Part shown: positions 45,659-59,450 of the stretch, piece after piece
Layout: each line of letters starts with the position of its first letter
Numbering within the stretch: the first letter of the stretch is position 1
Assembly: GCA_028534125.1 (NCBI GenBank)
Contig: CM052822.1
Location: 63,612,001-63,676,000 of the forward strand
Direction of reading: 5' to 3'
Source of the DNA: Lama glama
Taxonomy: Eukaryota
DNA length: 64,000 nt
Notes under the pieces: generated by a model
The model's input: only the letters and a program-made list of their open reading frames with translations
Told to the model about the DNA's origin: nothing
Databases searched by the model: none
Made by a program: the position numbers and the translations under genes

Positions 45659-45830
45659 CTTTCCCCAAATATAAAAAAAGCTGAGTGTCACTCTGCCCCT
45701 TCTGGAGCTGTGTTTAGTCTCACAATGTCAGGTCCACGATGGTCTGTGGGGGGAAGGCCAGTCTCACAAGATGTTAGGAGGTCATCTTGGACAATGAATG
45801 CAACTGAGAACTAAAAATTATAAAACCCAC

Positions 45831-46176
45831 TGTACTGTAGGTGCTCACTGAGGTCCAGGCTTCGCAGGTTCACGGACTCGGGCAGACAGACGAACACTCG
45901 CAGAGCCGCATCTCAAACGTGCCTTTATTGCGGAGCGGAGTCCCCGAGCTTTGGAGGCGGCGTCGGCGGCGGCGGAAAGTCCCGCCCTCCTTATATCGCG
46001 AGACTGGCAAAAACCGGCAAGCGGCCGACTGACCTACGGGCTGACCTCTGCGCTTGCGCAGCGCAAGTCATCACTATGTAACAATACATGGGTACTGCGC
46101 ATGCGGGGTAATATTGCTAAGTCACTGGGCACCAGACGTCAGGCGAGGGAGCGTGACTGACGCCACCTTCCCTACA
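45831..46176 (-). mobile_element. Young endogenous retrovirus solo LTR (~345 bp)
   Basis: TG...CA ends with a TGTAGG/CCTACA terminal inverted repeat. TSD CCCAC at 45826-45830 and 46177-46181. Minus-strand TATAA (~45991-45995) followed by AATAAA (45924-45929). 32 CpGs counted by eye. No PBS or PPT in the flanks. Confidence 0.88.
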
Positions 46177-46334
46177 CCCACTCTTCTTAAAATGTATTTA
46201 TTTATTTAACAAACACTTATAAAGAGCGGACCTTACATAGATGCTGTTCTGAGGTATGGGGCAGACAGGAATAAATGAAACAGAGGAGTCTCTGATTCCA
46301 TAGGGCTGATGAACTAGGAAAAAAAACACACAAA

Positions 46335-46421
46335 AGCATGATGGACATCATGTGTCATTAGGGAATCACAAATTAAAATGACAAGATACTATACACATCT
46401 TTTAGAATGTTAAAATCCAAA
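46335..46421 (+). mobile_element. L1 ORF2 fragment running into an N-run (antisense L2 tail just upstream, ~46190-46320)
   Basis: gtcattagggaatcacaaattaaaatgacaagatactatacacatcttttagaatgttaaaatccaa resembles VIREMQIKTTMRYH..RM.KI. Confidence 0.7.
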
Positions 46422-58444: not shown

Positions 58445-59450
58445 AAATATGGCGGCCGCCAACTTCTGTGAGTGCGTGGCTTACTTATTGTGCCTCTGCT
58501 GTATGCCATGGGGGTGGTAAAAAGGGTGAGTTAAAATCAGAGTTCTTGTGGTACTAACAGTCCAACACGGGACAGAGAGTAGGCAGAGGACTAAAACATT
58601 GGGAAAAAGGAGTGAAGCCCAACTTGGCAGGACTTTGGAGACGGCACAGATGCCGGAAAGCTTTACCAGAAGAGACAGCGTGAGAGCTGATCCCTAGGGA
58701 TGGGTCGTGTTTCCTCGACAGGGGATGAAACAGCAACAACGACCCCGGGGACCAGCGATAATCCCGGGCGGACTGAGTGCCGGGCTCGGGGCTGAAACGA
58801 AGGCAGTTCCATTCACCGTGTTCCTGAGGAATTCAGGTCCGTGTTTAGCCCGCCGCTCACCGGTCACCACCAGCCAGCCAACTGCACAGCCCATGCCCGC
58901 TTGCCTTCCCGTCGGCTTATTTATTCAGCCGTATTTTGTCTTTTCAACACTTCCTGTCGCATTTGATACGGCTATCACCGGAATTCTAAAGAAATGTTTG
59001 GCGGCAGCTTCCCTTAGGCTGGGATATCGCAGGATCTTGGGGGTTTTCAGGAGACACTCAGCCACAGATGTTCCCGTATCTGCACCAAGTCAGACGTCCT
59101 CTTTGCACAGAGGTGATCTATAAGCTTGTGCCCAGGAGAAACAGCAGGCCTTTGAATGGAGGTCCCCCCCCAAGAGTTGCCCATTTGTCTTGCTTTTTTG
59201 TTCCACCTTTATTCTACTCCTGGAGGGAACATTCCTAATAGGATTAATAAATGAAAAATGTAAATAATGTGACTACTGAAATATAGATTTTTCCAGGAAT
59301 GCATTTTGTTACTGGCTTTGTAGAAGCTAAGGCACAGGCTGCCACCTGTTCCATGGTTACTTCGCACACCGCCAGCGGGAGAGGAGTTCACAAAGTCAGA
59401 GCCAGAGCTCCCAGGAGTCACCGCCCTTAGGGGAAGCTGGCGGGAGAAGA
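58445..59450. promoter_or_regulatory. CpG-enriched candidate promoter/enhancer with YY1 motif
   Basis: AAATATGGCGGC (YY1) at 58445-58456; roughly two dozen CpGs in 58690-59000; ETS motif ACTTCCTG near 58949; no recognisable repeat. Confidence 0.4.

What the first reader, a model, noticed from the sequence alone, without database searches (positions are those of the whole stretch)
45826..46181. Very young, CpG-intact solo LTR; possibly an uncharacterised camelid ERV family
Seen: a ~345-bp element with TGTAGG...CCTACA inverted ends, a perfect 5-bp TSD (CCCAC), TATA then AATAAA on the minus strand, and 32 CpGs in a CpG-depleted background. Established: solo LTRs arise by LTR-LTR recombination, and CpG retention marks recent insertion. 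Inference: its size and motif set (AAGGTGGCG, TGACGTC, GCATGCGCA) recall IAP-type class II LTRs, but those typically have 6-bp TSDs, so the 5-bp TSD leaves the class open. It may be insertionally polymorphic and point to an intact provirus elsewhere. I cannot tell whether it is already in Repbase/Dfam.
Basis: partly seen in the sequence, partly recalled or inferred. Interest (0 to 1): 0.7.

Follow-up and report, generated by a model that had tools for sequence, protein, structure and literature searches.

The report
Old virus remnant that kept CpGs
A 346-base end-piece (solo LTR) of a broken, tens-of-millions-of-years-old retrovirus family has kept the CG pairs that methylation usually erases, likely because it stayed unmethylated in germ cells rather than because it is young, which is a known behaviour in a known kind of element.

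Summary
The solo LTR is real: 45831-46176, minus strand, TGTA...TACA ends, perfect 5-bp TSD, 32 CpG (O/E 1.03; window 0.25). It is not IAP-like. Proviruses with related LTRs carry a tRNA-Ser primer site, YIDD reverse transcriptase and gamma-type env remnants: the class III ERV-S (HERV18/LTR18-like) layout. 'Very young' is not supported. The closest of 40 scored copies is 76% identical. Four proviral LTR pairs differ by 14-16%. Perfect TSDs occur in 10 of 27 other solo copies. Copies with eroded TSDs reach O/E 1.08. One public contig about 5.5% diverged crosses this element's end into its TSD and flank (only 13 flank bases). CpG content follows form: solo median 0.64, proviral 0.29. Best reading: an old solo LTR that likely escaped germline methylation as a mini CpG island; methylation and transcription were not measured. 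A lone recent insertion stays possible (about 10%). Dfam/Repbase could not be searched. The scan earlier noted similar CpG-keeping old repeats elsewhere in this genome, but no sequence look-alike.

The parts
45826..45830 (.). Target-site duplication CCCAC (at the LTR's 3' end)
   Evidence: sequence
45831..46176 (-). Solo LTR, 346 bp, class III ERV-S-like family; 32 CpG, O/E 1.03
46177..46181 (.). Target-site duplication CCCAC (at the LTR's 5' end)
   Evidence: sequence
46135..46141 (-). CRE-like site TGACGTC (7 of 8 letters of the CRE; half-site in 14 of 32 other copies)
   Evidence: CRE sequence from PMC9729108 passage
46097..46105 (-). NRF1-like site CGCATGCGC (in 19 of 32 other copies)
   Evidence: motif recalled
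46050..46059 (-). Second NRF1-like palindrome (loose match; in 7 of 32 other copies)
   Evidence: motif recalled
45994..46003 (-). BANP-type CGCG element, found only in this copy (0 of 32 others), overlapping the TATA box
   Evidence: 10-mer form recalled, CGCG core from PMC11514455 passages
45991..45995 (-). TATA box (TATAA)
45982..45987 (-). GC box GGGCGG
45924..45929 (-). Polyadenylation signal AATAAA

Best explanation
This is a solo LTR of a class III, ERV-S-type retrovirus family whose proviruses are old and broken, and this copy likely inserted in the same old wave and likely kept its CpGs by staying unmethylated in the germ line. Steps. (1) Shown: an LTR with 5-bp TSD and no internal sequence; LTR-LTR recombination as its origin is established knowledge. 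(2) Shown in related copies: tRNA-Ser PBS, YIDD RT, gamma-type env remnants, LTR pairs 14-16% apart. (3) Inferred: this copy is old, from its 22% distance to the nearest copy and from one 5.5%-diverged contig that shares its junction. (4) Shown: CpG content differs widely among equally diverged copies and is higher in solo than in proviral LTRs. (5) Inferred: losing the PBS and internal sequence would remove silencing targets, so the CpG-dense promoter (CRE-like, NRF1-like, GC-box and here BANP-type sites) would hold itself unmethylated in germ cells and escape CpG decay. No host function is claimed.
For: No near-identical sister: best 76% among 40 scored of 114 candidates; two 24-26-mers specific to this copy hit only the window at up to 2 mismatches. 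Star-like tree: end branch 0.19, median 0.14, other CpG-rich copies up to 0.25. LTR pairs p = 0.137, 0.155, 0.145, 0.153, and 0.10-0.15 without CpG sites. Perfect TSD in 10 of 27 solo copies and 2 of 4 LTR-paired proviruses. O/E at least 0.9 in 5 of 49 other LTRs, 3 of them solo copies with a TSD mismatch; copies with eroded TSD are not CpG-poorer (median 0.66, n=17, against 0.56, n=10; p=0.11). Solo 0.64 (n=27) against proviral 0.29 (n=12), p=0.001; per locus p=0.012; using only copies found by a CpG-poor query, 0.61 (n=17) against 0.20 (6 loci), p=0.010. Run X19 record 21 lies on 46045-46189 with 8 other letters in 145, crossing LTR end, TSD and 8 flank bases; the best paralog over the LTR part of that stretch is 88%. 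20 of the 32 CpGs sit at places where most copies have CG or its decay product, and only 2 common family CpGs have decayed here. Literature: hypomethylated LTRs in cattle sperm were associated with old age (PMC5928411, passages); CpG-dense elements without KZFP binding are hypomethylated and CFP1-bound (PMC8555987, passages); no TE family under 1% divergence in the alpaca draft (PMC3183009, passages).
Against: Methylation and transcription of this locus were not measured. The diverged contig is a single record at depth 3.4 from a run with no organism label, with 13 letters on the flank side where the tool asks for 31. No RNA contig of this locus was laid (a filter drops records). The flanks have no CpG shore (O/E 0.15 within 250 bp, median of solo copies 0.28), which a long-lived unmethylated patch might be expected to leave (PMC4509998, abstract). 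This copy is among the most distant from its family (nearest p = 0.22), and 11 of its 32 CpGs are nearly private, which also fits a separate viral strain. A perfect TSD plus intact CpGs is what a young insertion would show. The genome search scores only the best 40 candidates. LTR boundaries were set by script; 10 of 49 copies could not be classed as solo or proviral. No RT tree with labelled HERV-S sequences was built.
Confidence: 0.72

Rival explanations
1. A lone, recent germline insertion (a few million years or less) by a diverged ERV-S strain that left no other copy; the CpGs have had no time to decay.
For: Perfect TSD, O/E 1.03, intact TATA and poly(A) signal; long branch and 11 nearly private CpGs; CpG-poor flanks; a horse ERV-S with open frames is reported (PMC5682256, passages).
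Against: The 5.5%-diverged contig sharing the junction (P = 0.0001 for 8 of 145 if true divergence were 1%); the filled site under 6 organism labels (12 of the 14 runs are flagged as possible sources); old CpG-rich copies are common; no young provirus found.
Confidence: 0.1
2. An old LTR co-opted as a host promoter or enhancer and kept by selection, with a gained BANP-type site.
For: Full set of CpG-island factor motifs and intact TATA; NRF1, BANP and CREB1 are methylation-sensitive activators (PMC9729108, passages).
Against: No transcript of this locus was laid; no host gene was identified (0 Pfam hits in 30 of 152 window ORFs scanned); the diverged contig differs at 5.5% and has lost a CpG at 46153, so no strong conservation is visible.
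Confidence: 0.12
3. An old LTR whose CpGs were partly created anew by GC-biased gene conversion at an unmethylated recombination hotspot.
For: 11 of 32 CpGs are nearly private; CpG-rich copies tend to have more private non-CpG changes (rho 0.32, p = 0.07).
Against: GC 0.60 equals other CpG-rich copies; the flanks are not GC-rich (0.37 and 0.47); the weak-to-strong excess is shared by many copies and is confounded by CpG decay on opposite strands.
Confidence: 0.05
4. Assembly artefact or contamination.
For: The assembly is fragmented and holds duplicated small contigs.
Against: 14 DNA runs from 6 studies hold 95-100% of the sampled words of element plus flanks; clean TSD.
Confidence: 0.01

Closest known systems
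HERV18/HERVL18 (HERVS group, ERV3; LTR18A-C), Kojima 2018, PMC5753468 (passages)
   Same: Class III lineage without recognisable dUTPase and with an ERV1-like env; serine PBS (the naming rule is in PMC5682256, passages). LTR18A copies average 16.1% from their consensus (PMC9712623, passages), an age of the same order.
   Different: Primate family. Sequence identity of this LTR to LTR18 was not testable. The camelid family is probably an independent invasion (inference).
XtERV-S of Xenopus, Yedavalli et al. 2021, PMC8278194 (passages)
   Same: TGT...ACA termini, 5-bp TSD, tRNA-Ser(AGA/TGA) PBS, YIDD, RT-tether-RNase H-IN order, CWIC motif and gamma-type TM.
   Different: XtERV-S is intact and young; every camelid provirus seen here is broken and old.
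EqERV-S1 of horse, PMC5682256 (passages)
   Same: Serine-PBS ERV in a hoofed mammal.
ERV-S-like pol proteins in mole (P0001), pheasant (P0004) and bat (P0006)
   Same: 68%, 47% and 61% identity to a family RT fragment; the mole protein has the same domain order and no dUTPase hit.
   Different: Unnamed predicted proteins; their LTRs were not seen.
CpG-dense, hypomethylated LTRs: human LTR12C, variably methylated IAPs (PMC8555987, passages); old hypomethylated LTRs in cattle sperm (PMC5928411, passages)
   Same: CpG-island-like LTR that likely escapes methylation when silencing targets are absent.
   Different: Here the state is inferred from CpG decay only, and the element is far older than IAP or LTR12C.
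IAP-type class II LTRs
   Same: Similar length and a CRE-like site.
   Different: 5-bp TSD, serine PBS, YIDD and gamma-type env; pol is far closer to gamma and foamy enzymes than to beta-type ones.

Membership tests
Solo LTR | TG...CA ends with a flush TSD and no internal sequence | tested here: met
Solo LTR | Homologous sequence occurs as paired LTRs around gag-pol-env | tested here: met
   four pairs: L031, L032, L106, L125; RT, RNase H and integrase Pfam hits
Class III ERV-S (ERVS/HERVS lineage) | 5-bp TSD and TGT...ACA termini | tested here: met
   this copy; 10 of 27 solo copies perfect, 17 with 1-2 mismatches; feature from PMC8278194
Class III ERV-S (ERVS/HERVS lineage) | tRNA-Ser primer binding site | tested here: met
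   in related proviruses, since a solo LTR has none: 6 of 6 5' LTRs with internal sequence; the pattern hits the genome's tRNA-Ser(AGA) genes in 5 of 8 loci scanned
Class III ERV-S (ERVS/HERVS lineage) | YIDD reverse-transcriptase motif | tested here: met
   readable in 3 of 6 proviral loci (L032, L124, L125); the others are deleted or decayed there
Class III ERV-S (ERVS/HERVS lineage) | Gamma-type (ERV1-like) env: CWIC, immunosuppressive domain, CX6CC | tested here: met
   remnants: CWIC in 2 of 6 loci, LQNxMALD in 4 of 6, CX6CC in several; no Pfam env hit in the short fragments
Class III ERV-S (ERVS/HERVS lineage) | No dUTPase | tested here: inconclusive
   no dUTPase hit in 65 fragments or in the mole relative at E up to 1; the fragments are decayed, and a 100-residue tail after integrase has no assigned family
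Class III ERV-S (ERVS/HERVS lineage) | RT groups with HERV-S in a phylogeny | not tested
   no labelled HERV-S sequence was returned
Class II / IAP-like | 6-bp TSD (recalled) | tested here: not met
   TSD is 5 bp here and across the family
Class II / IAP-like | Betaretrovirus-type pol and Lys/Phe PBS (recalled) | tested here: not met
   serine PBS; the mole relative scores 1e-36 to 1e-31 with MLV-type and foamy RTs, 7e-8 with chain 7sr6 (HERV-K RT, identity recalled)
ERV-L / MaLR | Env-less; leucine PBS (recalled) | tested here: not met
   env remnants and serine PBS
Named Dfam/Repbase family | Over 80% identity to a curated LTR consensus | not testable with these tools
   no repeat library is held
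Young, active ERV family | Near-identical copies and LTR pairs under 2% apart | tested here: not met
Germline-unmethylated LTR-derived CpG island | At least 200 bp, GC over 50%, CpG O/E over 0.6 | tested here: met
   346 bp, 0.60, 1.03; thresholds recalled
Germline-unmethylated LTR-derived CpG island | Low methylation in sperm or oocytes | not testable with these tools
   no methylome available

The most novel reading that the evidence does not exclude
This LTR is the single footprint of a diverged env-bearing class III (ERV-S) retrovirus that still entered the camelid germ line within the last few million years, long after the main family died, so an infectious mammalian ERV-S lineage survived to near the present. 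A less bold and likelier novelty (about 0.4): recombination from provirus to solo LTR switches germline methylation fate in this family and seeds dozens of mini CpG islands.
Probability: 0.08. Interest if true: 0.65.

Novelty: new member of a known kind. Interest (0 to 1): 0.27.

Why it matters
Alone it is an ordinary old LTR. Its use is as a caution and a small natural experiment. CpG content and a perfect TSD do not date an LTR in this family. About 50 equally old copies span O/E 0.0-1.08, with solo copies keeping about twice the CpG of proviral ones, so one sperm methylome could test whether losing the primer site and internal sequence lets an LTR become a CpG island. It also records an ERV-S family in camelids that my 10 paper searches did not find described, though it may be in Repbase or Dfam.

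Tried and rejected
Near-identical sisters: none. Intact provirus: none among 8 proviral loci fetched or 77 RT matches; the best family hits are 67-69% identical. First protein search with an RT fragment: 0 hits among 21 candidates. Triplet substitution spectrum as a test of viral against neutral evolution: dropped, because opposite-strand CpG decay mimics a weak-to-strong excess in most copies. RNA runs X15 and X17: only pieces of related LTRs under 95% alike were laid and no flank, so they say nothing on transcription of this locus; the DNA run X13, which holds 95% of the words, also had its own contig missing from the lay, so holes prove nothing. Transcripts running beyond the 730-base stretch were not examined. 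Host gene context: 0 Pfam hits in 30 of 152 ORFs, no Atlas hit for one ORF, no Rfam or tRNA hit in the window. CpG shore in flanks: weak trend across copies (rho 0.33, p = 0.09), absent here. Molaro et al. 2011 was not held and is not used. Rows dropped before counts: 18 pattern loci without a full LTR, 2 without a qualifying hit, 2 duplicates (L016, L027). Lentiviral and deltaretroviral origins were considered because of the TSD and rejected on the PBS, YIDD and env type.

Full report
Observation. The element spans 45831-46176 (346 bp), reads TGTAGGG...CAGTACA on the minus strand and is flanked directly by CCCAC on both sides. It has 32 CpG (O/E 1.03, GC 0.60) against O/E 0.25 for the window; no other 346-bp window exceeds 25 CpG and the median is 3. 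TATAA (45995) precedes AATAAA (45929) on the minus strand.

Family. A search of the own genome (2.35 Gb; chromosome-sized contigs numbered up to 37, in line with the camelid 2n=74 in PMC6598621, passage) gave 114 candidates, 40 scored: the window itself, then 68-80% identity, 76% at best over near-full length. A CpG-poor copy as query gave 143 candidates, 40 scored. Two words specific to this copy hit only the window at up to 2 mismatches. I analysed 49 distinct other LTRs after dropping 18 truncated loci, 2 without a qualifying hit and 2 duplicates.

Class. Four loci hold paired LTRs around 4.4-5.8 kb of internal sequence. All 6 5' LTRs with internal sequence are followed by the same decayed primer site. 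A pattern written from it hit 14 places (control 5), and 5 of the 8 loci scanned are tRNA-Ser(AGA) genes. The internal remnants show a protease DTG motif, YIDD (3 of 6 loci), RT, tether, RNase H and integrase (Pfam), CWIC (2 of 6), LQNxMALD (4 of 6) and CX6CC. No dUTPase was detected, but the pieces are decayed. PMC8278194 (passages) gives TGT/ACA ends, a 5-bp TSD, a serine PBS, YIDD and a gamma-type TM for a class III element. PMC5753468 (passages) defines the ERVS lineage as ERV3 without dUTPase and with ERV1-like env (HERV18, LTR18A-C). The closest proteins are unnamed mole, bird and bat pol sequences (6 hits among 535 candidates). The mole protein scores far better with MLV-type and foamy enzymes than with beta-type ones. 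So the family has the ERV-S layout and is not IAP-like. A tree with labelled HERV-S was not built, and the link of this solo LTR to those proviruses rests on 69-75% LTR identity.

Age of the family. LTR pairs differ by p = 0.137, 0.155, 0.145 and 0.153 (K2P 0.157-0.176; 0.10-0.15 without CpG sites). With 1.3-2.1 x 10^-9 changes per site per year (range from PMC5682256, passage, read here as a per-LTR rate) three of the pairs give 37-68 million years; CpG changes inflate this, so 25-60 million years is my rough range. Camel ancestors left North America 11-16 million years ago (PMC6946651, passage). The LTR tree is star-like with a median end branch of 0.14 and almost no supported structure. All proviral frames seen are broken by stops, shifts and deletions. 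Jurka et al. list no family under 1% divergence in the alpaca draft (PMC3183009, passages).

The two youth markers fail in this family. Perfect TSDs survive in 10 of 27 solo copies with a recognisable TSD and in 2 of 4 proviruses whose LTRs are 14-16% apart. CpG O/E runs from 0.00 to 1.08. Five of 49 copies reach 0.9, three of them solo copies with a TSD mismatch, and eroded-TSD copies are not CpG-poorer (0.66 against 0.56, p = 0.11). CpG content follows form instead: solo 0.64 (n = 27), proviral 0.29 (n = 12), p = 0.001; per locus p = 0.012; with only copies found by the CpG-poor query, 0.61 against 0.20, p = 0.010. Ten copies could not be classed, and one 3' LTR is an exception at 0.82.

Age of this copy. 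Element plus flanks are held at 95-100% of 87 words by 14 DNA runs under 6 organism labels; 12 are flagged as possible sources, and empty alleles would rank lower and go unseen. In the lay on 45670-46400, run X19 record 21 covers 46045-46189 with 8 other letters in 145 and runs through the LTR end, the TSD and 8 flank bases; it shows a CpG decay at 46153. The best paralog over the LTR part is 88%, so this is probably an ortholog about 5.5% diverged (95% interval 2.4-10.6%), which would put the insertion well before any recent split. It is one contig at depth 3.4, from a run without an organism label, with 13 flank-side letters where 31 are asked, so it is a strong hint and not proof. Against old age: the copy is an outlier (nearest p = 0.22, end branch 0.19), 11 of its CpGs are nearly private, and its flanks have no CpG shore (0.15).

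Mechanism. Shown: solo structure, family layout, family age, decoupling of CpG from age, the solo-provirus contrast, and a promoter with CRE-like, two NRF1-like, GC-box and BANP-type motifs (the NRF1 and 10-mer BANP forms are recalled). Inferred: after recombination removed the primer site and internal sequence, silencing targets were lost and methylation-sensitive factors or CxxC proteins kept the LTR unmethylated in germ cells, so CpGs did not decay. Support from print: CpG-dense elements without KZFP binding are hypomethylated and bind CFP1 (PMC8555987, passages); NRF1, BANP and CREB1 are methylation-sensitive and a CRE drives IAP LTRs (PMC9729108, passages); hypomethylated LTRs in cattle sperm were associated with old age (PMC5928411, passages); CpG O/E records germline methylation history (PMC5793779, passages); new CpG islands can be unmethylated in male germ cells (PMC4509998, abstract and outline). 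Motif retention in CpG-rich copies is partly circular, since the motifs contain CpG. No methylation, transcript or host gene was shown.

Novelty. Ten paper searches listed no description of a camelid ERV-S family. The camelid repeat survey PMC8605555 (passages) counts ERVL-class elements by superfamily only; its supplements and those of the other papers were not read and may list the family, as may Repbase or Dfam. PMC9712623, PMC10536682 and PMC11514455 were seen as passages. Earlier scan notes report CpG-keeping old repeats of other families in this genome and no look-alike of this sequence; they are unchecked and are not counted as support. Verdict: a new member of a known kind, interest 0.27.

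Noticed in passing
L032:7694-8993 (G000:C24): The 5' LTR of one family provirus lies about 600 bp from a TMEM101 coding exon on the opposite strand (Pfam E 1e-26); it keeps 13 CpG against 6 in its 3' twin.
   Followed up: partly
L106:2448-2908, L031:5443-5895, L107:4545-5004: A tail of about 100 residues after integrase is conserved with the mole protein P0001 and deleted in L032; by eye its spacing recalls a decayed dUTPase, but Pfam finds nothing.
   Followed up: partly
L033:2231-5907 (G000:C27): Two family solo LTRs 3 kb apart in opposite orientation, each with its own TSD, 17% apart.
   Followed up: partly
L015 and L016 (G000:C1039020): Identical LTR copies with identical flanks 240 kb apart in opposite orientation on one scaffold: a palindrome, a recent duplication or an assembly copy.
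   Followed up: no
L032:7200-7270: A CAG-type triplet run inside the broken gag of one provirus.
   Followed up: no
window:14050-14950 and window:58450-59150: Two other CpG-rich patches (up to 21 and 25 CpG per 346 bp), the second with a YY1-like ATGGCGGC motif near 58450 (motif recalled); possible small promoters or enhancers.
   Followed up: no
window:11650-12100: CpG-rich patch (up to 18 per 346 bp) with three overlapping ORFs of 104-141 codons and no Pfam hit.
   Followed up: partly
window:45300-45660: Sequence that looks like an older MLT1-type (MaLR) LTR end, 170 bp from the element; resemblance recalled, not tested.
   Followed up: no
window:59962-60366: A 135-codon open frame with an exon-like look; no Pfam or Atlas hit.
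   Followed up: partly
runs X15, X17 on window:45910-46158: RNA libraries, one labelled reproductive system, hold several contigs with related LTR pieces at depth up to 91; family copies may be transcribed, but DNA in the library is not excluded.
   Followed up: partly
G000:C17:17953454-18295476: A cluster of 9 matches to the tRNA-Ser end; 3 of 3 checked are tRNA-Ser(AGA) genes.
   Followed up: partly
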